Assembly (NCBI GenBank): GCA_964474445.1
Contig: CAYYSJ010000007.1
Coordinates: forward strand, 3,112-67,111
Direction of reading: 5' to 3'
Length of the DNA stretch: 64,000 nucleotides
Origin: an uncultured Gammaproteobacteria bacterium
Lineage (GTDB): Bacteria > Patescibacteriota > Microgenomatia > Levybacterales > UBA12049
Positions 28,538-63,594 of this stretch are shown piece by piece. Position numbers and translations under genes: made by a program. The notes under the pieces are model-generated. The model was given only the letters and a program-made list of their open reading frames with translations, did no database searches and was not told the origin of the DNA. The stretch's first letter is position 1. Each line of letters starts with the position of its first letter.

Positions 28538-29587
28538 ATGCCAAAACATACTCTTCATGATGTTAAAAAAATCGCTTTGTTGCGAGCAAATGCATTAGGT
28601 GACTTTTTTTTCGCTTACCCTGCACTGTGCGCATTAAGAAATGCCTATACAGATGCAGAAATTGTCTATTTAGGCAAACCTTGGCATAAAGAATTTCTCG
28701 AGTCACGAATATCTCCTATTAATCGTGTTATTGTTGTTCCTCCTAGCATAGGTGTGCGAGAAGAAAAAGACTATCTATGTAGCAAAGAAGAACTAGATAT
28801 CTTTTTTGCTGAGATGAAAAAAGAACATTTTGATCTTGCCATACAAATGCATGGAGGGGGAAAGTACTCAAATCCATTTATTTTGAAACTTGGAGCAAAA
28901 ACCACCGTAGGACTGAAAACACCTGATGCATCACCCCTTGATATATCGATCCCCTATGATTTGTATCAAAATGAATTTCTAAAATATTTAGAAGTTGTTG
29001 GATGCATTGGGGCAGTAACAAAAAATCTTCATCCTCTGCTTTCTGTTACCAAAACAGATCTCTCCCTCGCAAAAGACTATGTCCCTTCGAAACCTTTTAT
29101 TGTTATGCATCCTGGTGCATCCGATCCTCGAAGGAGATGGCCGGAAAAATACTTTATTGAAATAGGAGATATCCTTTCAAGAAAGGGGTTCAGCATCATC
29201 ATAACTGGCACAGAAGCTGAAAAAGAGATTGCTGCACATATTATTTCTCGTATGCAAAAAAACGCAATTAACTTATGTGGAGCTAGTAACCTCAGTACTC
29301 TTACTGGAATTTTGGCTCTTTCACAGCTTGTCATTTCCAATGATAGCGGCCCCCTGCACCTTGCTGATGCTGTGGGAGCAAGAACCGTTGGAATATATTG
29401 GGTTGGAAATGCGATGAACAGTTCTCCTCTTATTCGTGCTGGTAAAAAAGTCTTGTTTTCCTGGACGCTGTTGTGTCCTTTCTGTCATACAAACTGTATT
29501 GAGAAAAATTGTGGACATGAAGTTTCTTTTGTAGAAGATATCAAACCAAAACAAGTCATCGAAGCTGCATACCAATTGTTACAGTAA
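28538..29587 (+). CDS. GT9 family glycosyltransferase (heptosyltransferase-like), copy 3, with C-terminal Cys4 cluster
   Basis: 349 aa. 'KIALLRANALGDFFFAYPAL', 'ISNDSGPLHLADAVG', and a C-terminal 'LLCPFCHTNCIEKNCGHE' four-Cys motif absent from copies 1 and 2. Confidence 0.7.
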   Translation: MPKHTLHDVKKIALLRANALGDFFFAYPALCALRNAYTDAEIVYLGKPWHKEFLESRISPINRVIVVPPSIGVREEKDYLCSKEELDIFFAEMKKEHFDLAIQMHGGGKYSNPFILKLGAKTTVGLKTPDASPLDISIPYDLYQNEFLKYLEVVGCIGAVTKNLHPLLSVTKTDLSLAKDYVPSKPFIVMHPGASDPRRRWPEKYFIEIGDILSRKGFSIIITGTEAEKEIAAHIISRMQKNAINLCGASNLSTLTGILALSQLVISNDSGPLHLADAVGARTVGIYWVGNAMNSSPLIRAGKKVLFSWTLLCPFCHTNCIEKNCGHEVSFVEDIKPKQVIEAAYQLLQ

Positions 29588-37542: not shown

Positions 37543-40500
37543 TTAGTTGCTGGATCCTTTAACAACAGTATAATTTATCACAGGAGCATCCACTGCAGTT
37601 CCTCCGGTTGTGAGAAAAGTAATCTGGAAACTTCCTGCTGCTATATTTGTTACAAATAGCTCATACAGATTAGTTCCTGAATTTTGATTCAAAAGGATCG
37701 TATCTGTTGCTGCAACTGTACTGTTTGTAACAGTAAATGAAGTTGCTGTAGCTGACCCTGCTGCTGAAAAGAGAGTTATTTGACCTGTTGTCTTATTAAG
37801 CGTAACGCCTGTTGATCTACTAGTAAGTTGTGTAACAGTACCTCCTGCTCCTGCTCCATAACCGATTCCAGTTGATCCAGTTGATTTAATAAATCCTGTT
37901 GCAGTCAATGGACCATTAACCGTTGCTCCTGCATTAGATGTTGAATTACCAATGGTAACAAGACCAGAAGTTGCGGAAATAGTATTAATACCTACTGTAC
38001 CTGTTCCTTTTCCATCTAAAGTAAGATTCGTATTGGCACCTGAATCAATTGCAGCAAGGGCTGTCGTGCCTCCTGTCGCGGCTCCTGTTACTGATAAACC
38101 AGTCGCAACAGAAGCTGTACTAGCATTAACTTGAAGTACAGGATTCAATGATCCACCCGCTCCAACTGTTAATGCATTCGCACTAGTTGATGTAACCGTA
38201 ATTGCACCTGATCCAATGGTTCCAGCGCCTGTTATATTACCCGCTGATGTAATTGTAATGTTTGGTGATGTGAGAAAGTTCGTATATCCAGTACCAAAGG
38301 TAAGTGCGTTAAAGTTATTATTTGCAACTGCACTTACATTGGCAAAATTAATACCAGTATTGGTATTGGTTCCACTTGATGGTGCAGTACCAACCATTGC
38401 CACAGAAAGTCCATTCACACTTGTTCCCGCTGCTGCGTTACTGTTTGTCACATTAAATGTTGTTGCTGTACCAGTGGTGTTTGAATAATTTTGAGTAACT
38501 GTTCCCGTTCCAGAAGCCAGTGTTAATGTCTTATTTGCTGATACTGTAGTATTTGCACCTAAGGTAATAGCATTTGCATTGGTAGTACCAATATTAACAC
38601 CCGCCGCTCCTCCGGTATCAAGCGTTACTGCATTTGCACCTGTTGATTGGAATGTAAATGCTCCCGCAACTGCTGGCTGTACAGCAGTCGAGGAGAGAGT
38701 CACGCCGTTATAACTTCCTGCGCCAGTAATAACACCACCTGAGGTAACATTAATGTTTGGTGATGTGACAAAGTTTGTATACCCAGTACCAAAGGTAAGC
38801 GCATTAAATGTATTATTTGCAACTGCACTTACATTGGCAAAATTAATACCAGTATTGGTATTGGTTCCACTTGATGGTGCAGTACCAACCATTGCAACAG
38901 AAAGCCCATTCACACTTGTTCCTGCTGCTGCATTACTGTTTGTCACATTAAATGTTGTTGCCGTACCTGTGGTGTTTGAATAATTTTGGGTAATTGTTCC
39001 CGTTCCAGAAGTAAGTGTTAATGTTCTATTTGCAGCAATTGTTGTATTCCCATTAAGATTGTTCGCTCCAGTTGATGTTGAGAAGGTACCTGTACCGTTA
39101 AAGGTATAATTTGGATTATTTGTACCATTACCGAAATTAAGAGCATTTGCATTGGTATTACCAACGTTGACAGCAGCTGCTCCTCCTGCATCTAATGTCA
39201 AAGCATTAGCACCATTTGATTGGACTGCAAGCACTCCAGCAGATGTTGGCTGAATAGTACTACCAACTGTAATGTTTGCACCAGTAACGGTTAATGTTCT
39301 GGATGTTGTACCTCCTGCAACGGTAAAACCATCTGCTGCAGAGGTTAAGGTTAACCCATTGACGGTACTGGATGTCGCAAGCGGACCACTCACGGTTGTT
39401 GTCACGCCTGATCGTCCGATTGTCACACCATTTGCATTTGTTGTCCCAATATTGATTCCTGCTGCTCCTCCTGCATCAAGGGTGAGGGCTGTTGCTCCTC
39501 CGGAAGTAACTGACAGTGCTCCAGATCCCGTAATATTCCCGCCAGCAGTAAAGGCAGGCAGGGTTAACCCAGTCGTTGTTACTGTTCCATTGATGGCTGG
39601 AGCTGTTAATGTCTTATTTGTTAATGTCTGGGTTGCTCCGATACCAACAACCGTATCGGTTGCCGTTGGGAATGTCATGGTTGTTCCATCGGTACCTGCT
39701 AAGGTTAAGGTATTGCTGACTGTTAATGTTTTAGCTGTTGTTCCACCAGCAATCCCAAACCCTGTTGCATTTGCCGTAAGGGTAAGACCATTAATTGCAC
39801 CGAAACTTGAAATGGTTGGAGAACCTGAACCAGTAATATTGCCACTGGCAGTAAAGGCAGGCAGTGTTAATCCTGTCGTTGCGACTGTTCCATTGATTGT
39901 TGGAGCTGTTAGTGTTTTGTTTGTTAATGTTTGTGTCGCCCCGGTACCAACAACGGTATCGTTCGCAGTTGGGAACGTCATGGTTGTACCATCAGTGCCT
40001 GAAAGGGTAAGTGAGTTATTTGCAGTTAATGTTTTTCCACTCGCTACAGTTAATCCGTTCACTGTTGTTGCATTAATTGTTCCAGAACCAGAAGTCGTAA
40101 GTGATGCCCCTGTTCCAACTATCATAGCTGCGCCTGTATTTGTACCCCCACTGAGTGTTGAGAAAGATGCGCCAGAGCCTGAACTTGCTGCAATGGTAAT
40201 ACCTCCTGCAGCATTTGTAATAGTTACTCCAGATCCAGCAGTAAGAGTTCCTAGACTGTATCCACTACCATTTCCAATTAATACCTGTCCATTTGTTGGT
40301 GTTGTCGTTACTCCGGTTCCACCATTACCAACAGGAAGCGTCCCTGTGACATCTGAAGAAGCAAGATTTGTTGCTGAGGAGGTAATACTACCAGAGCCAT
40401 TACTATGTAATATTCCCGATCCTAATGCACCAATTGTTAATCCACCTGAAAGATTGAGATTACCATTATTATCTATAGTAGCCTTTGTTAAGTTAAGGGC

Positions 40501-41487
40501 TGACCATCTATTACTTGATGTACCAAGTTGACCAACGCCTGATTGAGCAGGATACAAATCACCACCCGTAGAACCCAAAACTGCCCCATCTCCAAGTGCA
40601 CTTGAGTTTGTCCCAGCATTCGCTTGAGCAGAATTATACGTAGTTAACACACTACCTTCTGTTAACATAACATCATCAAGATATACAGCTCCACTTGTTA
40701 GTCCTTGAACCTGGAACATTGGATAATAATTTTTGCTATCAGTAATAAGTCCTCCCGTAGTCACTGTTGTTGAAATCCTATACCAATCTTTTGTTCCAGA
40801 TATTGTTATATTTTTAAATGAACCCTCTTTATTATTTTGTTCATCCCAAAACCCAATACGGAAGGTTGCATTAGAAGCATTGACATTTTTTACCCATGCA
40901 GAAAGTGTATATGTTCTCTGTGGAGTTGTTTTTGTGTTAGGTTGAGAAATACCAAAATTACCTGTTCCTCCACCAACAAACTTAAGTCCATAGCTTCCTG
41001 AATGAATTCCCTCTTGAGAAATAAAGGTATTCCCAGAATTTGAATCAAGCTGAGTATTCCATTGTGAGGGAATACTTCCAGTTCCGCCTGCCTCAAAAGA
41101 AGAATTTCGAAGAAGATTTACTCCGGCTGTATCTACAACTAAGGCATTTTGAGAAGGTGCTTGATTGAGGGAGCTTATTTGTAATGACAGATTCCCTACT
41201 TTTTGTTGAAGTGCTGCAAACGCGTCTGGATCAATACTTATTCCTTCTACCGCTCTTGTTTGAGGTTTTGACGCATTCACTACCAATGTATTTGTACTCT
41301 CATAAGGAGTCTTCCCTTGAAAGACAACGTTCATCACAGAACCCAAAAAATTTCGCATATCTTGTCCGCCAAAAGCTTGTGCACTTGGGACCTGAGAGAG
41401 GACAAGAATCACGATAAACGACGTTGCAATCAGAAACTTTCGTAAGGAAACCTTTGCTCTTTTTCTTTCTTTTTTGTTTTCTTTCAT
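37543..41487 (-). CDS. Giant secreted Thr/Gly/Asn/Ala-rich repeat protein with N-terminal CBM4/9-like carbohydrate-binding module and beta-helix-like repeats (surface adhesin/fibre candidate)
   Basis: 1314 aa. Signal peptide/anchor 'FLIATSFIVILVLSQVPSAQA'. CBM4_9-like block 'NLLRNSSFEAGGTGSIPSQW...GSYGLKF...YTLSAWVKN'. Then ~1000 aa of low-complexity T/G/N/A repeats with recurring 'TQTLTNKTLTAPxINGT' and 'TLTL(S/A)GTDGTTMTFPTA' units. Confidence 0.7.
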   Translation of the reverse strand: MKENKKERKRAKVSLRKFLIATSFIVILVLSQVPSAQAFGGQDMRNFLGSVMNVVFQGKTPYESTNTLVVNASKPQTRAVEGISIDPDAFAALQQKVGNLSLQISSLNQAPSQNALVVDTAGVNLLRNSSFEAGGTGSIPSQWNTQLDSNSGNTFISQEGIHSGSYGLKFVGGGTGNFGISQPNTKTTPQRTYTLSAWVKNVNASNATFRIGFWDEQNNKEGSFKNITISGTKDWYRISTTVTTGGLITDSKNYYPMFQVQGLTSGAVYLDDVMLTEGSVLTTYNSAQANAGTNSSALGDGAVLGSTGGDLYPAQSGVGQLGTSSNRWSALNLTKATIDNNGNLNLSGGLTIGALGSGILHSNGSGSITSSATNLASSDVTGTLPVGNGGTGVTTTPTNGQVLIGNGSGYSLGTLTAGSGVTITNAAGGITIAASSGSGASFSTLSGGTNTGAAMIVGTGASLTTSGSGTINATTVNGLTVASGKTLTANNSLTLSGTDGTTMTFPTANDTVVGTGATQTLTNKTLTAPTINGTVATTGLTLPAFTASGNITGSGSPTISSFGAINGLTLTANATGFGIAGGTTAKTLTVSNTLTLAGTDGTTMTFPTATDTVVGIGATQTLTNKTLTAPAINGTVTTTGLTLPAFTAGGNITGSGALSVTSGGATALTLDAGGAAGINIGTTNANGVTIGRSGVTTTVSGPLATSSTVNGLTLTSAADGFTVAGGTTSRTLTVTGANITVGSTIQPTSAGVLAVQSNGANALTLDAGGAAAVNVGNTNANALNFGNGTNNPNYTFNGTGTFSTSTGANNLNGNTTIAANRTLTLTSGTGTITQNYSNTTGTATTFNVTNSNAAAGTSVNGLSVAMVGTAPSSGTNTNTGINFANVSAVANNTFNALTFGTGYTNFVTSPNINVTSGGVITGAGSYNGVTLSSTAVQPAVAGAFTFQSTGANAVTLDTGGAAGVNIGTTNANAITLGANTTVSANKTLTLASGTGTVTQNYSNTTGTATTFNVTNSNAAAGTSVNGLSVAMVGTAPSSGTNTNTGINFANVSAVANNNFNALTFGTGYTNFLTSPNITITSAGNITGAGTIGSGAITVTSTSANALTVGAGGSLNPVLQVNASTASVATGLSVTGAATGGTTALAAIDSGANTNLTLDGKGTGTVGINTISATSGLVTIGNSTSNAGATVNGPLTATGFIKSTGSTGIGYGAGAGGTVTQLTSRSTGVTLNKTTGQITLFSAAGSATATSFTVTNSTVAATDTILLNQNSGTNLYELFVTNIAAGSFQITFLTTGGTAVDAPVINYTVVKGSSN
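38258..39030. repeat. Near-identical 495-bp (165-codon) tandem duplication inside the giant protein gene
   Basis: Antisense ORFs 38216..38488 and 38753..38983 translate to near-identical peptides, giving a period of exactly 495 bp. On the coding strand this duplicates 'TLTL(T/A)SGTGT(I/V)TQNYSNTTGTATTFNVTNSNAAAGTSVNGLSVAMVGTAPSSGTNTNTGINFANVSAVANN'. Confidence 0.7.
39540..40010. repeat. Diverged ~303-bp (101-codon) tandem repeat inside the giant protein gene
   Basis: Two ~85% identical nucleotide blocks starting near 39547 and 39850, coding 'TLTL(S/A)GTDGTTMTFPTA(N/T)DTVVG(T/I)GATQTLTNKTLTAP(T/A)INGTV..TGLTLPAFTA(S/G)GNITGSG'. Confidence 0.55.
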
Positions 41488-41546
41488 AGAAATAGCATTA
41501 CATATTCATGATGAAGATTATGTGAAGAAAATACTGTATTTCTTGT

Positions 41547-42620
41547 TTAATTTGAAGGTAAAGCTTGTGCAGATGTATGAAGAGGTAGTTTTATAGTTAC
41601 CGTTGTTCCTTTCCCGAGCTCACTTGCTATGTGAATGTTTCCATTATGTTTTTCTAAAATCATTTTTGTTATGGTAAGCCCTAACCCTATACCTTCCGTC
41701 TGCTTACCTTTATTATTTCCACGAAAGAATCTTTGATACAGATAGGGGAGATCTTCTTTTGAAATTCCTACACCTGTATCCGAAATTACAATGCTTACAT
41801 TATTTTTTTCTCTTCTACTACTGACTATTATTTTCCCCCCCTTATTTGTGTATTTAATTGCGTTTTTTAATATATTAACTATAGCCTGTTCCATACGTAT
41901 CGAATCTCCTAATAAAGAGACTTTTGGCAACTTTTTAACAATAAGTTCTATTTCCTTTCTATCTGCTATATAACGCATCCGTATAATTGCCTGATCTATG
42001 ACACTATCCAGAAGGAAAGGAATAGTAATAAATGTTTCTTGGTATGTATCGTTACGAGATAAAAAGAGTAAATTGTCTAAAATAAGCTGAATTCTCTCGA
42101 TTTCATTACGATTAGCTCTTCCAGCAGCTTGTCTTTGCAGTAAAAGATCTTTTTGACTCTTAAAATCTTTGATATTTTGTTGTAAAAATATTTCTAAATC
42201 TGCTTTGATGATAGAAAGAGGAGTACGAAGCTCATGAGAAGCTTCTGCTAAAAAATTTTTTTGATTCTCAACAATTTTTTTGAGAGGCCTGATTCCAAAA
42301 CCAGCAAGGACATAACTAATACCAATTACTACAAAAAACATGAATACATCTTCAGGCTGGATACTATATAATGTTAATGTTGCTAATCTTGTTGCTCTGT
42401 TTATAAACCTTTGCCTTCGAGAATCAGTAGGATTGGATATTTCATTTGAAATTATCACTGCTTCCTCTGTAAACTCTCTGTGAAGAAGGGTGAGATAGAA
42501 TAAGATCCCACTTACAATAACGAGCGTATAAATAATTGTTAGTTGTAATTGCGTCGATGTGAAAGGATTATTTTTTAAGTTGATAACCCACACCACGAAT
42601 CGTTTCCAAAATGTTTTCAT
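41547..42620 (-). CDS. Sensor histidine kinase
   Basis: 357 aa. Two N-terminal TM helices, HisKA H-box 'EASHELRTPLSII', HATPase_c G-boxes 'DTGVGI' and 'GIGLGLTI'. Confidence 0.85.
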   Translation of the reverse strand: MKTFWKRFVVWVINLKNNPFTSTQLQLTIIYTLVIVSGILFYLTLLHREFTEEAVIISNEISNPTDSRRQRFINRATRLATLTLYSIQPEDVFMFFVVIGISYVLAGFGIRPLKKIVENQKNFLAEASHELRTPLSIIKADLEIFLQQNIKDFKSQKDLLLQRQAAGRANRNEIERIQLILDNLLFLSRNDTYQETFITIPFLLDSVIDQAIIRMRYIADRKEIELIVKKLPKVSLLGDSIRMEQAIVNILKNAIKYTNKGGKIIVSSRREKNNVSIVISDTGVGISKEDLPYLYQRFFRGNNKGKQTEGIGLGLTITKMILEKHNGNIHIASELGKGTTVTIKLPLHTSAQALPSN

Positions 42621-43254
42621 ATCCTACCTCCTTTAACTTCTTTCTAATATTTTTAACATGTACATCTACCACATTAGAAAATGAGTCAAAATTAATGTCC
42701 CAAATTTTTTCTAATATCTGTTCTCTTTCTAAAACAGTATTTGGATGTTCCATAAGGTATTGAAGAAGATTAAATTCTTTAAGCGTTAATATAAGTTCTT
42801 TTTCTTGATAGAGAACTTTTCTCATTGCTGTATTAAGGATAAGGTCACCAATACGCAATTCTGAAGTAATATTTTGTGCTTTATGAGATCTACGCACCAA
42901 TGCACGTATACGAGCAAAAAGAATATCAAATGAAAAGGGCTTTGTGAGGTAATCATCAACACCAGCATCAAGACTTGTAATGATATCTTCAGGTGTATCT
43001 TTTGCGGTGAGCATAAGAACAGGTATCGTTAATCCTTGCCTCCGTAACATTTTGCATAGTTCTACTCCGCTCTTACCTGGAAGCATAAAATCAAGCAAAA
43101 GCATATCGATACTATCCTGATTTCGAGAGATAAAAAGCTCTGCATCCTCGGCAGAAGAAAAACTGTACGCTGTATAGCCTTGTTGTTTGAATCCTTTTTT
43201 AAGATTTTTTGCCAGTCTTTCTTCGTCCTCAATAATCAAAATTTTCATATTCAT
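42568..43254 (-). CDS. OmpR-family response regulator
   Basis: Receiver domain ('KILIIEDEE', 'LLLDFMLPGKSG', 'LTAKD') plus C-terminal winged-helix trans_reg_C. I prefer the start at 'MNMKILIIED' over the track start 43284. Overlaps the kinase gene. Confidence 0.85.
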   Translation of the reverse strand: MNMKILIIEDEERLAKNLKKGFKQQGYTAYSFSSAEDAELFISRNQDSIDMLLLDFMLPGKSGVELCKMLRRQGLTIPVLMLTAKDTPEDIITSLDAGVDDYLTKPFSFDILFARIRALVRRSHKAQNITSELRIGDLILNTAMRKVLYQEKELILTLKEFNLLQYLMEHPNTVLEREQILEKIWDINFDSFSNVVDVHVKNIRKKLKEVGYENILETIRGVGYQLKK

Positions 43255-43427
43255 AGTATGCACCGTCCATAATGAAGATTTCATGAAGAGTTAATGCTTT
43301 TGCTTACTATAACATAACTTTAGTTTTTTTAGTAGGGAAATGATCATGTAAGATATACAATTCAACGGTTCTTATCACAAGCAAAGAGGGTGTACTGAAT
43401 GAATGTGGATCTTAATCTAAAGTAATA

Positions 43428-48590: not shown

Positions 48591-49892
48591 TTAGTGTCCT
48601 AACGTGAAAATCATCGCAACTGCCGCAGCACCCATTGAAATAAAGGTTATCCAAACTACTACTTGGGAAAGCCATCCACTAGCATACTCTCCCATAATTT
48701 TTTTATTTGCTGCTATTTTTGCAATAAGGAAAATTAGCGGTACCGCAACAACCCCATTAATCACTGCCGTTACAACAAGCGCTTTAATTGGATCAAGACC
48801 AATAAAGTTAATCATTAAGCCAATGAGTGTAGCAATAGTGATAACGCCATAAAATCCATGTGCACGTTTGAGCTTTAAATTGAGTCCTTCCTTCCAGCTA
48901 AATGCTTCAGAGAATGCATACGAAGCAGAGCATGATAAGACAGGAATAGCAAGAAGTCCTAATCCGATAATGCCAATAGAGAAAATGAGTTTTGCAAGAT
49001 ATCCAGAGTTAGGAAAGGTATGTACCAATGGTTCTAATGCTTTTGCTGCATCTGCCGAGGTTGCAATATTTGTAACTCCATGGGAATTCAGTACTGTTGC
49101 AGTGACGACAATAATACACCAGGTGACAGCCTCTGAAGCAAACATACCAAACGCATTATCAATACGCATGTTTTTCACTATTCTCCATACATTTTTTGGT
49201 TCTCCATCTGCATTCAGTTCATGATGTGCTTTCTCTTCTTCAACTTCTTGGTTCGCTTCCCAGAAAAATAAGTAAGGAGAAATTGTTGTCCCAAGAACAC
49301 CTGTGATAATAAAAAGAAATGCAAAGCTAAATTCAAAGTGAGGAAGAATCGTTGCTTTTACAATAGTCTGAAATGGAAGATGAATAATAAGAAGAGTTAA
49401 TGGGTATGCAAGAAGAGCTATGGCTAACCATTTGAGGATACGAGAATAAACATAATAGTTAGTAAATATTTCAAGGGTAAGAATAAAGGCCGTAAAAAAG
49501 AGTGTCCAGATCACAAAATGAAATGGAAGAATTAAATTTGCAGCAGCAGCTAATGCCCCAATGTCTGCTCCAATGTTGATTGTGTTTGCAATTAAAACAA
49601 GAACGACGACACCATATAGTACCTTTTTACTATAGTTGTCTCGTACTACAGCAGCAATCCCTTTTCCTGTGACAATACCTATTCTTGCACAAGCTTCTTG
49701 AACTGCAATCATTAAAGGAAGCATCGCAATTGCTGTCCATAGTTGTCCATATCCAAATTGAGCACCTGTTTGAGAATACGTTGCAATACCAGATGGATCA
49801 TCATCTGCCGCTCCAGTAACTAATCCTGGCCCTAATACGCGAAAAAATTTGCGAGAATTCTTCTTTGTGTTATGCAGTAGTTCTTTTATCAT
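48591..49892 (-). CDS. Nramp-family transporter, NRMT-like paralog 2
   Basis: 433 aa. TM1 'GPGLVTGAADDDPSGIATYSQTGAQFGYGQLW' has DDDPSG in place of DPGN. TM6 'GTTISPY' replaces 'GAxxMPH'. Confidence 0.75.
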   Translation of the reverse strand: MIKELLHNTKKNSRKFFRVLGPGLVTGAADDDPSGIATYSQTGAQFGYGQLWTAIAMLPLMIAVQEACARIGIVTGKGIAAVVRDNYSKKVLYGVVVLVLIANTINIGADIGALAAAANLILPFHFVIWTLFFTAFILTLEIFTNYYVYSRILKWLAIALLAYPLTLLIIHLPFQTIVKATILPHFEFSFAFLFIITGVLGTTISPYLFFWEANQEVEEEKAHHELNADGEPKNVWRIVKNMRIDNAFGMFASEAVTWCIIVVTATVLNSHGVTNIATSADAAKALEPLVHTFPNSGYLAKLIFSIGIIGLGLLAIPVLSCSASYAFSEAFSWKEGLNLKLKRAHGFYGVITIATLIGLMINFIGLDPIKALVVTAVINGVVAVPLIFLIAKIAANKKIMGEYASGWLSQVVVWITFISMGAAAVAMIFTLGH

Positions 49893-50247: not shown

Positions 50248-51930
50248 TTAATGTCCCGTTGCAAGTTGTACAACTTTGATAATCATTAGTAATGCAGCAA
50301 CAACTAAGTATCCTCGAAGCGTATACATACCGATTTTTCTTGTTAATGACCATTCAGGTTTTGGTAATGTCTCTAATGGTTGCATTCTCCAATTCATTTT
50401 TTCCTCAAGAGACATCAATTCTTTTTTCTCTGTCTTTTTCTTACTAAATAGATAGAATCCTCCTGTTATCAGAAGCCCGGCAATAAGAGCACTTCCGGTC
50501 CAAACAGTTACTTGAGTTCCATCAAGATTTGGGAAAAGCGTTGTCGCAGCAAGAATAAAGGAGAGCATAACTAACACTCCAATAATGATACCTGCAATTG
50601 CATTAAGCCATTTTGTATTTACCCAAGGGCCAAGCACATGTTTATCGTTGCACAAAAGGACAAGAAATACAGTGGCCGATGGAAGAAGAATGCCAGCTAA
50701 AGCTTGTACAGCAAGGTTAATAAGCCCAAGAGGAGCATGAGGAATAAGCACTATTGCTGCTGCAAGAACAACAAGGACTGAATAAGAAATGTAGAAGAAT
50801 TTTGCATCTTTAAATGATCTATGGAGTGAATGATGCATTCGAAATACATCTCCAAATGCATATGAAGTTGAAAGGGTAACTGCAGCAGCACCAATCACTG
50901 CAGCATCTATAAGAATTATTGCCCCCATAGCTCCTGCTTGATGTCCAAATGTTGTAGCAAGACCACTAATGACTCCTGTCATATCTGAAAACTGTCCTGT
51001 AAGTTTTGTTCCTGCAAATGCAAAAGCAGTTACGATGATCATGGCAGCAGCACCAAATTCGGTAACAAATGATCCAAAAATGGTATCCATTACTTCATAT
51101 TTAAGCCAGCGAGGAGTAATTCTCTTGTCAATAACGTTTGACTGTTGGAAAAACAATTGCCATGGAGCAACAGTAGTCCCAACAATACTCACAATAAGAA
51201 GGAGTACGGTGGAGTTAAGTCCTCCTGCTATTCCAGGAATAAACGTATCATGGAGAACTGGCATCCAGTGAGGGTGAACCATGAGAGCTAATGGATAAAC
51301 CAGAAATGAGAAGACAATAAAGCCGTACATAAATTGCTCCCAACGTTTGAAGCTTCCAGTAAGTGCAGTTGCAATAAGGATTGTGGCAAATAAGGGAACA
51401 GACAGGTATGGAGGAATTCCAAAGTAAAGTGCACCTTGAGAAATACCAATAAATTCAGTGACAATAGTAAGAAAGTTTAAAATAAATAAATCCCCTGCTG
51501 AGAAAAATCCCCAGAATTTTCCAAACCGTTCAATAATCATGCGAGCATGTCCGACACCTGTCACAGCACCAAGACGAGCAACCATTTCTTGATTCACAAT
51601 AAGAACAGGTATAAGAAGGAAGAGCGTCCACATAAGAGAAGTGCCGTAATTTTGTCCTGCTTGCATGTATGTAGCAACTCCTCCCGCATCGTTATCACCA
51701 ACCATAACAATGAGCCCTGGACCCATGATCACTAAAAACGCAAGAAGTTTTTTTAATAGTCCTTTATGCTGATATGGATGTTCATCTTTTCGGATAGTAC
51801 CCCATGCGCCATAGATATCACCCAAGTGGGCTGGATCTAACACAGCACTCCCCGCATGAGAGTCAACCTCATGTGGATGAGGTAAATATTTATAATAAAC
51901 GTTTTTGAAAAATTCTTTCATCACAAACAC
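50248..51930 (-). CDS. Nramp-family transporter, NRMT-like paralog 3 (extended C-terminus)
   Basis: 560 aa. TM1 'MGPGLIVMVGDNDAGGVATYMQAGQNYGTSLMW'. TM6 'GTTVAPW'. Extra C-terminal TM helices and a ~60-aa tail. Confidence 0.75.
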   Translation of the reverse strand: MFVMKEFFKNVYYKYLPHPHEVDSHAGSAVLDPAHLGDIYGAWGTIRKDEHPYQHKGLLKKLLAFLVIMGPGLIVMVGDNDAGGVATYMQAGQNYGTSLMWTLFLLIPVLIVNQEMVARLGAVTGVGHARMIIERFGKFWGFFSAGDLFILNFLTIVTEFIGISQGALYFGIPPYLSVPLFATILIATALTGSFKRWEQFMYGFIVFSFLVYPLALMVHPHWMPVLHDTFIPGIAGGLNSTVLLLIVSIVGTTVAPWQLFFQQSNVIDKRITPRWLKYEVMDTIFGSFVTEFGAAAMIIVTAFAFAGTKLTGQFSDMTGVISGLATTFGHQAGAMGAIILIDAAVIGAAAVTLSTSYAFGDVFRMHHSLHRSFKDAKFFYISYSVLVVLAAAIVLIPHAPLGLINLAVQALAGILLPSATVFLVLLCNDKHVLGPWVNTKWLNAIAGIIIGVLVMLSFILAATTLFPNLDGTQVTVWTGSALIAGLLITGGFYLFSKKKTEKKELMSLEEKMNWRMQPLETLPKPEWSLTRKIGMYTLRGYLVVAALLMIIKVVQLATGH

Positions 51931-52094
51931 CTCCTATGTAAAAGGTAATATTGGAAAGTTCGCCTGAAAGAAGAGGATTATCTAAGAGGAACCATACAAA
52001 AATAATCTACAATCTCTTATAAACTCTTTTTGTTTAGCGACGTCTTAACACCTCTTCTCGTTGAGCTTCGACTATTGCTGAAAGACGTATGCGT

Positions 52095-52268
52095 ACTACT
52101 CTATTCGTTCTAACCTAATCTAAATCAATGAAATTAAGCTATTGCAAGCTACTTTGGATTAATCCTTACTCCGGAAAAATCTGTCCTGACCTTGACCGTC
52201 TCTCGACGTGGGGGGTCAGCAGCTTGTATTCTTTCAGCAGTCTCACCTAACGAGGTGCAACTAACTAT
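52095..52268 (-). ncRNA. Candidate M-box (ykoK) Mg2+-sensing riboswitch in the leader of the Nramp-like operon
   Basis: Minus-strand leader reads ...CGTTAGGTGAGACTGCTGAAAGAATACAAGCTGCTGACCCCCCACGTCGAGAGACGGTCAAGGTCAGGACAG... This aligns with the Bacillus mgtE M-box core 'CGUUAGGUGAGGCUCCUGUAUGGAGAUACGCUGCUGCCCAAAAAUGUCCAAAGACG' as I recall it, with conserved GUUAGGUGAG, GCUGCUG.CCC, AGACG and CAGGACA boxes. About 330 nt of leader lie upstream of the Nramp ATG. Confidence 0.55.
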
Positions 52269-62537: not shown

Positions 62538-62607
62538 GATGCGGTCGCCGAGTTGTCAGGCATCTGTCCGCAAGACAGAGGACACAGGTTCAGCGCCTGT
62601 CCGCATC
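62538..62607 (+). ncRNA. GC-rich tRNA-like/structured leader element (candidate cis-regulatory RNA)
   Basis: 70-nt GC-rich island in an AT-rich genome, directly after a TATAAT box (62524-62529). Outer 7-bp stem GATGCGG/CCGCATC. Internal hairpins CTGTC-CGCAA-GACAG and ACAGG-TTCAGCG-CCTGT (T-arm-like). Direct repeat CTGTCCGCA occurs twice. Confidence 0.4.
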
Positions 62608-62616
62608 TCAAGTTTT

Positions 62617-63594
62617 ATGACACCACAAGAATATATTCTTTCAACACTAGAAGCACTAAAAGCCCCTGTCCAAATAGAAGATATTGGCAATACTTCCTTT
62701 GAGGATGCAATTTATTCGAAAGTTATGTCGAAAAAATTTCGTAAACTCAAACCAGGCGAAGATGCAGTAAGACTTACCAAACAAGCAATCCAACGTCTCG
62801 TTAAAGACAATAAGCCAATCAGAATTTTTGAGATGTTTGGCGGTAACAAACTTTGGCGATTTGAAGAAGCACCTGAAATTGACTGGGCAGAACTTTTTAG
62901 CTTTACCTACTTTGCACAATGGGCAAGACTTATTGCAAGCGTGTATAAACCAGGAGTCATTTTTGAATATTTTTCTCAGGATATTTCTGTTGAAAGACTT
63001 AATAATATTCCACGAATTGAAACAGATAAATATAGCGAAACATTTCGCTCAATGCTTAAGTTTGTTAAACCATATCTACCAGAAAATGTACAATTTATTT
63101 ATACCCGTCATTATGATTTATTTAAAAACCCTAACGATTACTATAAAGAGATAGAGGAAGCTAAGCAAGAACTTCTTAAACAGAATAATGGCAAACTTCC
63201 AGAAATGACAGACGCTATGAAAGCTGCAACTGAATTAAACGTAAAATTAAAGCCTGGACAAAACAATGATCCACAATGGCGGGAAAAGGTCGAATTGGAA
63301 CATCAAGCAATCTTTATAACACCAACTTTAAAGAAAGTTTCTGATGATCCAGCGAAGATTTGGACATGCCCCACATATTATTCTGATTCTGTAGTAACAG
63401 GAAGCACCAAAAGATCTTATGCCAAATTTTGGGCAGGCATTGGTGCGTTACAAAAAGAAGGAAATAGTTTTGCAGAGTTAGTTTTAACTCCTAGACAGTT
63501 AGAATCTGCAGAATTTGATTGGGAAGAAGTTAGTATACCAGGACTTGAAGGTAAAAATTTTAAAAGAGTACGGATGTTAAAAAAGCCTCTATAA
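62617..63594 (+). CDS. Hypothetical protein (no recognised domain)
   Basis: Track ORF 62539..63594. I prefer the start at 'MTPQEYIL' (62617) because the first 26 codons coincide with the structured GC-rich leader. No motif recognised. Confidence 0.4.
   Translation: MTPQEYILSTLEALKAPVQIEDIGNTSFEDAIYSKVMSKKFRKLKPGEDAVRLTKQAIQRLVKDNKPIRIFEMFGGNKLWRFEEAPEIDWAELFSFTYFAQWARLIASVYKPGVIFEYFSQDISVERLNNIPRIETDKYSETFRSMLKFVKPYLPENVQFIYTRHYDLFKNPNDYYKEIEEAKQELLKQNNGKLPEMTDAMKAATELNVKLKPGQNNDPQWREKVELEHQAIFITPTLKKVSDDPAKIWTCPTYYSDSVVTGSTKRSYAKFWAGIGALQKEGNSFAELVLTPRQLESAEFDWEEVSIPGLEGKNFKRVRMLKKPL

What the first reader, a model, noticed from the sequence alone, without database searches (positions are those of the whole stretch)
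37543..43284. Giant CBM-headed beta-helix-like surface protein with a recent in-frame 495-bp tandem duplication, placed directly downstream of a two-component system
Seen in sequence: the 1314-aa protein pairs a CBM4/9-like N-terminal module with ~1000 aa of T/G/N/A-rich repeats. One 165-codon unit is duplicated almost base-for-base (38258..39030), which indicates ongoing repeat expansion/contraction and possible phase or size variation. An older 303-bp repeat is also present. An OmpR-type response regulator and histidine kinase lie immediately 5' on the same strand with only a 59-nt gap, suggesting the fibre is regulated by an environmental signal. Such giant proteins are typical of episymbiotic CPR bacteria and phage-receptor/adhesion systems.
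Basis: partly seen in the sequence, partly recalled or inferred. Interest (0 to 1): 0.6.

Follow-up and report, generated by a model that had tools for sequence, protein, structure and literature searches.

The report
Phage-fibre-like surface adhesin of a CPR bacterium
This gene most likely encodes a long, exported surface fibre of a tiny (candidate phyla radiation) bacterium, built from shuffled modules like a phage tail fibre and ending in a tip shared with hundreds of phages. It is therefore a good candidate for how such bacteria recognise partner cells, though its internal repeat is not a fresh duplication.

Summary
The 1314-aa ORF, its CBM_4_9 module, the T/G/A/N-rich remainder, the OmpR-type regulator and kinase upstream and the 59-nt gap are all real.

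The "495-bp duplication" is only partly as described:
- About 105 of the 165 codons are alike, at 86-93% DNA identity.
- The longest exact run is 85 nt, and dS is 0.20-0.28.
- A 43-61%-identical homologue already has the two-unit layout. Internal gene conversion therefore explains the similarity better than a recent duplication.
- Two independent assemblies break exactly at the exact repeat, so it is not an artefact.

The protein is a mosaic. A Sec signal peptide is followed by a CBM_4_9 + neck head found only in Microgenomates-type CPR genomes (about 58 cluster representatives, absent from viral contigs). Next come shuffled fibre modules, then a confident β-sandwich tip up to 79% identical to C-termini of phage structural proteins (at least 590 viral contigs).

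A co-occurring variant has 100%-identical flanks but only 76% aa identity from codon 7 on.

An exact TCTTCA-N5-TCTTCA repeat lies upstream of both the regulator and the fibre gene.

The closest analogue is the Bdellovibrio MAT fibres, but the defining MAT N-domain is absent. The β-helix fold and trimer state remain untested.

The parts
37543..41487 (-). Fibre gene, 1314 aa. The exact product is present once in the protein collection, on an NCBI contig of 67.6 kb.
41374..41487 (-). Sec-type signal peptide, aa 1-38: K/R-rich n-region, hydrophobic FLIATSFIVILVL, then AQA|FGG.
   Evidence: Read from the translation. No signal-peptide predictor was available.
40657..41118 (-). CBM_4_9 carbohydrate-binding module, aa ~124-277.
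   Evidence: PF02018, E 3.7e-11. (weak match to 2zex-type CBM chains, E 0.015). (profile match to the CBM of galactanase 9fli, E 2e-5).
40450..40656 (-). Conserved 'neck', aa 278-346 (GDGxxL...GDxYPAxSGVGxLGTSxNxW...). It always follows the CBM in the family.
   Evidence: alignment A1, 41-69% identity
40171..40344 (-). Tail-fibre-type module (LPVGNGGTG...GQVLIGNGSGY...LTAGSGVTITN), aa ~382-439.
   Evidence: phrog_31660 'tail fiber protein', E 3.7e-6
39506..40020 (-). Two copies of the ~101-aa 'TQTLTNKTLTAP' shaft unit (aa 490-560 and 591-661). This is the older 303-nt repeat, with dS about 1.1.
38713..39054 (-). Knob module copy 1, aa 812-925.
38218..38559 (-). Knob module copy 2, aa 977-1090. 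It is 89-94% aa identical to copy 1 in the core and contains the 85-nt exact run 38316..38400.
37546..37872 (-). C-terminal tip, aa 1206-1314. Seven-strand β-sandwich shared with phage structural proteins.
   Evidence: phrog_18251, E 6.5e-23. (1178 hits, up to 79% identity). (pLDDT 84). (BFVD, E 3e-16, TM 0.88). (at least 590 viral contigs).
41512..41528 (-). Direct repeat TCTTCACATAATCTTCA, 24 nt upstream of the fibre ATG. Candidate response-regulator box.
43273..43289 (-). Second exact copy of the box, TCTTCATGAAATCTTCA. It lies 24 nt upstream of the likely true regulator start (ATG 43248, MKILIIEDE) and overlaps the longer ORF start at 43284.
41547..42620 (-). Histidine kinase with two membrane segments, a ~45-aa loop and no other sensor domain.
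42568..43284 (-). OmpR/PhoB-type response regulator.

Best explanation
The gene encodes an exported, cell-surface fibre adhesin of a Microgenomates-type CPR bacterium. It is built on the plan of a phage tail fibre and of the Bdellovibrio MAT fibres.

Shown:
- A Sec-type leader precedes a conserved CBM_4_9 + neck module. That module is the family signature and sits at the same place in all relatives.
- The remaining ~970 residues are a patchwork of modules shared at very different identities with unrelated fibre proteins.
- The last 109 residues fold as a β-sandwich that is widespread at the C-termini of phage structural proteins.
- The locus is a recombination hot spot.

Inferred:
- After export, the CBM/neck end holds the fibre on the bacterium's own envelope glycopolymer.
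- The shaft trimerises into a β-structured rod.
- The distal tip binds a surface glycan of another cell. That cell may be the episymbiont's host, possibly the same kind of cell that the tip-bearing phages infect.
- Module and allele swapping changes specificity.
- Transcription is controlled, at least in part, by the adjacent OmpR-type regulator through an 11-nt-period direct repeat found upstream of both the regulator operon and the fibre gene.
- The two near-identical knob cores result from an old internal gene conversion, and selection maintains both.
For: Architecture:
- The signal peptide is read. CBM_4_9 is above the Pfam cut-off.
- The head module is 41-72% identical in relatives and always lies at aa ~40-470, directly after the leader.
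- 58 cluster representatives match at E<=1e-30 among 1.84 billion proteins.
- Genome hits at 42-58% identity are in Gottesman-, Davies- and Roizmanbacteria.
- The head is absent from 2.9 million viral contigs apart from two 27-30% CBM-only hits.

Fibre nature:
- Relatives with the same head end in Peptidase_S74, the trimer-specific intramolecular chaperone (P0008, P0017), or in pectate-lyase-type β-helices (P0013).
- The list of database hits includes 'tail fiber domain-containing proteins' of Bdellovibrio.
- phrog_31660 'tail fiber protein' matches aa 382-439.

Tip:
- phrog_18251 matches at E 6.5e-23.
- It is up to 79% identical to C-termini of ~199-aa proteins encoded beside coat, portal, S74-fibre and tailspike genes.
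- The model has pLDDT 84. BFVD matches reach E 3e-16 and TM 0.88.
- At least 590 viral contigs carry it.

Mosaicism: aa 432-741 are 81% identical to P0005, which has a different N-terminus. aa 688-1183 are 61% identical to P0002. aa 705-922 are 56% identical to P0019, which has a Bdellovibrio-type N-terminus.

Hypervariability: contig L048 is 100% nt-identical over PD40, regulator, kinase and the 59-nt gap, but only 76% aa-identical in the fibre from codon 7 on.

Cellular context: the neighbours are LCP, LytR_C, MFS, ABC, SOD and kinase genes, with no phage genes. GC3 of every module is host-like at 0.14-0.31.

Regulation: the exact box occurs twice against 0.03 expected, both on the same strand and at the same distance from start codons. 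No terminator lies in the gap.
Against: - There is no direct evidence of surface display, trimerisation or ligand.
- The knob-unit AlphaFold monomer model is uninformative (pLDDT 60, no secondary structure), so the fold of most of the protein is unknown.
- The signal peptide was judged by eye only.
- Which end is cell-proximal is argued only by analogy and from the conservation pattern. In variant L048 it is the head end that differs.
- The tip has no significant match to a solved structure (best Foldseek E 0.03), so glycan binding is an inference.
- The two-component system is absent next to the homologues in ten related loci.
- The box pattern was derived from one of its own two copies.
- The organism is assigned only through relatives of this one protein.
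Confidence: 0.62

Rival explanations
1. Reversed polarity, or a polysaccharide-binding protein. The CBM_4_9 module is the working end and binds a substrate or host polysaccharide, as CBMs do in glycoside hydrolases. The repeat region and tip would then act as spacer or anchor, as in an S-layer-associated or cellulosome-like scaffold.
For: - The CBM_4_9 match is clear.
- The nearest solved sequences are CBMs of an S-layer-associated endoglucanase and of a galactanase.
- Some relatives carry pectate-lyase-type β-helix domains (P0013).
- The head end differs between co-occurring alleles.
Against: - This protein has no catalytic domain.
- Across the family the head is the constant part and the C-terminus the variable part.
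- The C-terminal tip is the domain that phages place at the distal end of their fibres.
- No C-terminal anchor motif is detected.
Confidence: 0.15
2. A phage, prophage or tailocin tail-fibre gene that happens to sit in the chromosome, so a virion part rather than a cell-surface protein.
For: - Two modules match phage protein families.
- The tip is abundant in viral contigs.
- Several hits look like true tail fibres (P0022-P0026).
Against: - No phage gene lies within about 10 kb on either side.
- The protein has an N-terminal secretion leader.
- The head module is absent from viral contigs and from 50,697 phage genomes.
- Codon usage is host-like.
Confidence: 0.05
3. This is a contingency locus in which the 495-nt tandem repeat expands and contracts by slippage or unequal crossing-over, giving size or phase variation of the fibre.
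For: - An 85-nt exact run exists between in-frame copies 495 nt apart. In principle this is long enough for homologous recombination.
- The knob module varies from 1 to at least 6 copies among relatives.
Against: - The copies differ at dS 0.20-0.28 and are under purifying selection.
- The two-unit layout is shared with a distant homologue.
- No heterogeneity was observed. The short-read contigs simply break at the repeat.
Confidence: 0.1
4. A structural envelope or S-layer-type protein with no specific binding role.
For: - The composition is T/G/A/N/S-rich, Cys-free and low in charge.
- The neighbours are envelope genes, LCP and LytR_C.
Against: - The gene is built from tail-fibre modules in a mosaic, with a swappable tip.
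- Relatives carry S74 chaperones.
- Allelic hypervariability in an otherwise identical background is typical of recognition proteins.
Confidence: 0.08

Closest known systems
Mosaic adhesive trimer (MAT) fibres of Bdellovibrio bacteriovorus (Caulton et al. 2024, Nat Microbiol, PMC10769870)
   Same: - A signal peptide is followed by a conserved N-terminal domain, a long phage-tail-fibre-like shaft and a variable C-terminal tip.
- Both families include S74-terminated and non-S74 members, with β-sandwich tips and 'tip swapping'.
- Bdellovibrio 'tail fiber domain-containing proteins' appear among the sequence hits.
- P0019 combines a Bdellovibrio-type N-terminus with this protein's knob module.
- Both occur in bacteria that live on other bacteria.
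   Different: - The defining ~130-aa MAT N-terminal domain is absent (BLASTP E 1.8). A CBM_4_9 + neck module takes its place.
- The host is a CPR bacterium, and no CPR entry is in the paper's list of MATs from other lineages.
- Only one copy is seen in this 64-kb window, against 21 per Bdellovibrio genome.
- Trimer state and surface display are untested here.
Phage tail fibres and tailspikes (modular receptor-binding proteins)
   Same: - Conserved N-terminal attachment end, mosaic shaft and exchangeable C-terminal receptor-binding tip.
- phrog_31660 and phrog_18251 match.
- The tip is up to 79% identical to phage proteins.
   Different: - The gene is encoded among cellular genes.
- The protein has a secretion leader.
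- The N-terminal module is not found in phages.
CBM_4_9 (Pfam PF02018) modules of glycoside hydrolases and S-layer-associated enzymes
   Same: The domain match is above the curated threshold.
   Different: No enzyme domain is attached. Here the module is fused to a fibre and forms a distinct, tightly conserved CPR subfamily together with its neck.
OmpR/PhoB-type two-component regulation through direct-repeat boxes (pho-box-like; from general knowledge of the family)
   Same: - Response_reg + Trans_reg_C regulator with a HisKA kinase.
- Two hexamers 11 nt apart lie upstream of the regulator's own operon and of a neighbouring target gene.
   Different: - Binding is not shown.
- The boxes lie only 24 nt from the start codons, which implies very short or absent leaders.
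- The pairing of two-component system and fibre is not conserved in relatives.

Membership tests
CBM_4_9 (PF02018) | Sequence matches the family HMM above the gathering score. | tested here: met
   44.0 bits against a cut-off of 25.9, E 3.7e-11, profile positions 2-132 of 136. The match is missed when the whole protein is scanned.
CBM_4_9 (PF02018) | Binds a carbohydrate ligand. | not testable with these tools
   Needs binding assays.
MAT superfamily (Caulton 2024) | N-terminal signal peptide. | tested here: met
   By inspection only: MKENKKERKRAKVSLRK-FLIATSFIVILVL-SQVPSAQA|FGG.
MAT superfamily (Caulton 2024) | Conserved ~130-aa β-rich MAT N-terminal domain directly after the signal peptide. 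| tested here: not met
   no similarity to the N-terminus of a Bdellovibrio tail-fibre-domain protein (E 1.8). A CBM_4_9 + neck occupies that position.
MAT superfamily (Caulton 2024) | Trimeric, meandering β-structured fibre. | tested here: inconclusive
   The monomer AlphaFold model of one unit has pLDDT 60 and no secondary structure. Indirect support comes from head-family members that carry the trimer-specific S74 chaperone. No multimer prediction was available.
MAT superfamily (Caulton 2024) | Variable C-terminal adhesive tip, either S74 or non-S74. | tested here: met
   The tip is a non-S74 β-sandwich. Relatives with the same head carry S74, pectate-lyase or other tips.
MAT superfamily (Caulton 2024) | Displayed on the cell surface. 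| not testable with these tools
   Needs microscopy or proteomics.
Phage tail fibre (virion component) | Encoded within a phage structural gene module. | tested here: not met
   The neighbours are a two-component system, LCP, LytR_C, MFS, ABC, SOD, a kinase and Nramp. The whole protein has no match in 50,697 phage genomes.
Phage tail fibre (virion component) | Shares fibre and tip modules with phage proteins. | tested here: met
Right-handed parallel β-helix (Beta_helix / pectate-lyase-like) | Match to β-helix families, or a predicted β-helix fold. | tested here: inconclusive
   No such Pfam match in any segment at E<=5. The structure model is uninformative. Relative P0013 does carry PF13229.
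OmpR/PhoB-type two-component system | Regulator with receiver + winged-helix domains; kinase with HisKA + HATPase_c. | tested here: met
OmpR/PhoB-type two-component system | The regulator controls the fibre gene. | tested here: inconclusive
   For: a shared exact direct-repeat box, no terminator in the gap, and the same arrangement in L048. Against: not syntenic in ten related loci.
Repeat-mediated contingency (phase- or size-variable) locus | Near-identical tandem units with copy-number heterogeneity in a population. | tested here: not met
   The units are 86-93% identical with dS 0.20-0.28. Heterogeneity cannot be measured from the contigs.

The most novel reading that the evidence does not exclude
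CPR episymbionts of the Microgenomates group carry their own class of 'cellular tail fibres'. A CBM_4_9 base holds the fibre on the cell. The exchangeable distal tip, taken from the phage receptor-binding-domain pool, selects the host cell, possibly the same hosts that the tip-bearing phages infect. The locus behaves as a swappable host-range cassette in otherwise clonal populations and is switched by a dedicated two-component system through a TCTTCA-N5-TCTTCA box.
Probability: 0.3. Interest if true: 0.8.

Novelty: new variant of a known kind. Interest (0 to 1): 0.6.

Why it matters
How ultrasmall CPR bacteria find and hold their host cells is largely unknown. So far only type IV pili have been implicated experimentally, in Saccharibacteria (papers listed).

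A fibre with a lineage-specific base and a tip drawn from the phage receptor-binding pool gives a concrete, testable candidate for host recognition. The tip can be expressed and used as a probe to fish for the host. The allele swap within 100%-identical flanks suggests that specificity is under diversifying pressure.

The finding also extends the MAT / tail-fibre-like adhesin concept beyond predators to CPR bacteria, with a different anchoring domain. Finally, it offers a small, well-defined candidate regulon for an otherwise uncharacterised CPR two-component system.

Tried and rejected
- **Tandem Repeats Finder** found no array in the gene.
- **Whole-protein Pfam, PHROG and NCBIfam scans** returned nothing. 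Only scans of separate segments worked.
- **tblastn of the whole protein against phage genomes** gave no match.
- **The Prochlorococcus phage MED4-184 locus** carrying a 43%-identical tip was uninformative, because every gene there is annotated as hypothetical.
- **A database search with the knob unit** returned only two fragments and missed even the query itself. The alignment for structure prediction therefore stayed shallow, and the model failed.
- **Organism name:** neither the exact-sequence look-ups nor any other source gave one.
- **Synteny of the two-component system in relatives** was not found.
- **Foreign-DNA signal:** the raised G+C of the gene (0.44 against 0.36) comes from amino-acid composition. 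GC3 is host-like.
- **Literature searches** linking CPR/Patescibacteria with tail-fibre-like or MAT proteins found nothing.
- **Considered and rejected:** prophage origin, assembly artefact and recent duplication.

Full report
**1. What is in the sequence**

The minus-strand ORF 37543..41487 encodes 1314 aa. The exact protein occurs once in the 15-billion-protein collection, on an NCBI contig of 67.6 kb, and carries no name.

On the same strand, immediately upstream, lie two genes. One is a histidine kinase (41547..42620; HisKA + HATPase_c; two membrane segments with a ~45-aa loop). The other is an OmpR-type response regulator (42568..43284; Response_reg + Trans_reg_C). The kinase stop and the fibre ATG are 59 nt apart, and no terminator-like hairpin lies between them.

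Further neighbours are a PD40/Tricorn-like protein, an LCP (LytR_cpsA_psr) protein, ABC transporter parts and two Nramp transporters upstream. Downstream are a LytR_C protein, an MFS transporter, a histidine phosphatase, a protein kinase and a superoxide dismutase. There are no phage genes.

Whole-protein scans against Pfam, PHROGs and NCBIfam find nothing. When residues 116-292 are scanned alone, CBM_4_9 is clear (44 bits against a cut-off of 25.9). Residues 346-1314 are 68% T, G, A, N and S, with no Cys or Trp.

**2. The repeats**

A self-comparison shows offsets of 495 nt and 303 nt standing well above all others.
The longest exact run is 85 nt.
- Only aa ~821-924 and 986-1089 correspond. 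The remaining ~60 codons of each 165-codon period do not align at this offset.
- Nei-Gojobori estimates for the cores are dS 0.20-0.28 and dN/dS 0.09-0.18. For the older 101-aa repeat dS is about 1.1.

Homologue P0002 is 61% identical over aa 688-1183 and has the same two units, which are only 55% identical to each other. Unit 2's flank in the window is closest to P0002 unit 2 (79% against 65%), whereas its core is closest to unit 1 (75% against 49%). The two-unit layout therefore predates the split of these proteins. The similarity of the cores is best explained by an internal gene conversion that is itself no longer recent.

The same ~110-aa 'knob' module occurs once in P0019, P0039 and P0043. 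It occurs at least four to six times in partial ORFs of more than 1100 to 3400 aa from JGI metagenomes. Copy number thus varies on evolutionary time scales.

Two independent Logan assemblies (SRR12266074 and SRR12266077) are 100% identical to the window from 29770/36490 up to 38345 and stop there. That position is exactly 30 nt into the 85-nt exact run, the break expected of a k=31 graph that contains both copies. The repeat is real. Copy-number heterogeneity cannot be judged from these data.

**3. What the protein is made of**

(a) *Leader, aa 1-38.* A K/R-rich stretch, a hydrophobic core and AQA|F, read by inspection.

(b) *Head, aa ~105-346.* CBM_4_9 plus a conserved neck.
- This block is 41-72% identical in relatives.
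- A profile of it finds 58 cluster representatives at E<=1e-30 among 1.84 billion proteins. The block nearly always lies directly behind the N-terminus of proteins of 350-2300 aa.
- In species-representative genomes, the hits at 42-58% identity lie in Candidatus Gottesmanbacteria, Daviesbacteria and Roizmanbacteria. Others lie in MAGs with doubtful labels.
- In 2.9 million viral contigs only two CBM-only hits at 27-30% identity appear.

(c) *Shaft.* It is a mosaic.
- aa 382-439 match phrog_31660 'tail fiber protein'.
- aa 432-741 are 81% identical to P0005, a 2057-aa protein with a different N-terminus.
- aa 705-922 are 56% identical to P0019, whose N-terminus is of the Bdellovibrio type.
- aa 705-809 are 70% identical to P0054.
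- Relatives with the same head end in Peptidase_S74 chaperones, in pectate-lyase-type β-helices or in other small domains.

(d) *Tip, aa 1206-1314.*
- It matches phrog_18251 at E 6.5e-23.
- 1178 database proteins match, the best 120 at 67-79% identity. Most are ~199-aa proteins.
- Two such genes were inspected in context. One sits between a P22-type coat gene and Phage_stabilise, S74-fibre and pectate-lyase tailspike genes. The other sits directly after the major capsid gene of an SU10-like phage.
- At least 590 IMG/VR contigs encode the tip.
- AlphaFold gives a seven-strand β-sandwich with pLDDT 84. It matches C-termini of 146-1033-aa proteins of uncultured Caudovirales at E 3e-16 and TM 0.88.
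- It has no significant match to solved structures. The weak hits are tailspike and R-pyocin-fibre C-terminal domains, H-type lectins and CUB domains.
- The phage contigs have 47-49% G+C, whereas the tip here has the window's low GC3 (0.19). The tip is therefore not a fresh import.

The AlphaFold monomer model of one knob unit, built from only nine sequences, is uninformative (pLDDT 60). The β-helix idea remains untested.

**4. A hypervariable locus**

Logan contig L048 (SRR12266074) is 100% identical at the nucleotide level to the window over the end of the PD40 gene, the regulator, the kinase and the 59-nt gap. From about codon 7 of the fibre gene it drops to 53-83% nt identity, and to 76% aa identity over 302 residues.

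In the same run, the 3' 800 nt of the gene and 8 kb downstream are identical to the window. Either the variant gene is a chimera, or two strains coexist. In both cases the fibre gene has been exchanged by recombination within an otherwise identical background. That is the signature of a recognition molecule under diversifying pressure.

**5. Regulation**

The gap contains TCTTCACATAATCTTCA, two hexamers 11 nt apart. The exact pattern TCTTCA-N5-TCTTCA occurs only once more in 64 kb, against an expectation of 0.03; none of 100 shuffles gave two or more matches.

That second copy lies on the same strand at 43289..43273, 24 nt upstream of the likely true start of the regulator. The likely start is ATG 43248 (MKILIIEDE), since the Pfam receiver domain begins at residue 15 of the longer ORF. 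The distance to the fibre ATG is the same 24 nt.

From general knowledge of the family, OmpR/PhoB-type regulators bind direct repeats with a 10-11-bp period. This is therefore a plausible box for autoregulation plus control of the fibre gene.

Two caveats apply. The pattern was derived from one of its own two copies. The two-component system is also absent beside the homologues in ten related loci, where only one locus has a divergently oriented kinase. Those loci also lack the box.

**6. Most likely function**

The protein is probably an exported, trimeric, tail-fibre-like adhesin. It would be anchored through its conserved CBM/neck end and would present a phage-type tip to other cells.

The closest described system is the Bdellovibrio MAT superfamily. 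MAT fibres have a signal peptide, a conserved N-terminal domain, a mosaic trimeric fibre, and S74 or non-S74 tips. They are surface displayed, and one tip is shown to bind a prey glycan (PMC10769870).

This protein works like a MAT but is not a member in the strict sense. The defining MAT N-terminal domain is absent, with a CBM_4_9 + neck in its place. The paper's list of MATs from other lineages contains no CPR organism. No paper in the library links CPR with such fibres.

The rivals are less well supported. They are reversed polarity or polysaccharide binding, a prophage fibre, a repeat-driven contingency locus, and an S-layer protein. Each is set out with its refuting test in the rival explanations.

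**7. Verdict**

The duplication is older and shorter than claimed, and it is not evidence of ongoing variation. The interpretation as a regulated CPR adhesion fibre is reasonable, and new evidence strengthens it: the tip shared with phages, the allele swap and the shared box.

Novelty: a new variant of a known kind. Interest: 0.6.

Noticed in passing
window 41512-41528 (-) and 43273-43289 (-): The exact direct repeat TCTTCA-N5-TCTTCA occurs only at these two places in 64 kb (expected 0.03). Each copy lies 24 nt upstream of a start codon: the fibre gene and the likely true start of the response regulator. It is a candidate regulator box.
   Followed up: partly
L048 1-3250 against window 43831-40586: A contig from another sequencing run is 100% nt-identical across PD40, regulator, kinase and the intergenic gap. 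It becomes a different allele (76% aa identity) from about codon 7 of the fibre gene, with a sharp recombination breakpoint at the gene start.
   Followed up: partly
window 52045-52261 (-), with ORFs 50248-51930 (-) and 48591-49892 (-): An M-box (magnesium) riboswitch scoring 117 bits precedes the first of two tandem Nramp-family transporter genes, not a classical MgtE/CorA/MgtA gene. This suggests an Nramp-related Mg2+ transporter.
   Followed up: partly
window 39272-40531 (+): A 419-aa ORF runs antisense inside the fibre gene. It is most likely a by-product of the repetitive, stop-poor composition and not a gene.
   Followed up: no
window 42568-42620: The kinase ORF as listed overlaps the regulator gene by 53 nt. 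The true kinase start is probably further downstream, or the two genes are translationally coupled.
   Followed up: no
window 62538-62609 (+): A tRNA-Cys (GCA) lies at the very start of the listed ORF 62539-63594, so the 5' end of that ORF is probably spurious.
   Followed up: no
L052 (1-10332), L054 (1-8556), L053: JGI metagenome contigs consist entirely of open reading frames of more than 1100 to 3400 aa that carry the same ~110-aa knob module four to six or more times at irregular spacing. These are much larger fibres built from the same part.
   Followed up: partly
L007 6752-7600 and L009 615-7640: In a Roizmanbacteria genome the homologous fibre gene directly follows a gene that looks like a prepilin peptidase (judged from its sequence only, not scanned against any family library). 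In another MAG a 2341-aa fibre-like gene without the CBM head lies directly upstream of the CBM-headed one.
   Followed up: no
window 28538-29587 (+): A Glyco_transf_9 (heptosyltransferase-type) gene is present. This family is best known from LPS core synthesis, which is unexpected for a CPR-type organism.
   Followed up: no
P0201 (168 aa): One tip-family member is a small protein with its own signal peptide, not a phage-type N-terminus. The tip therefore also circulates as a free secreted domain in cells.
   Followed up: no
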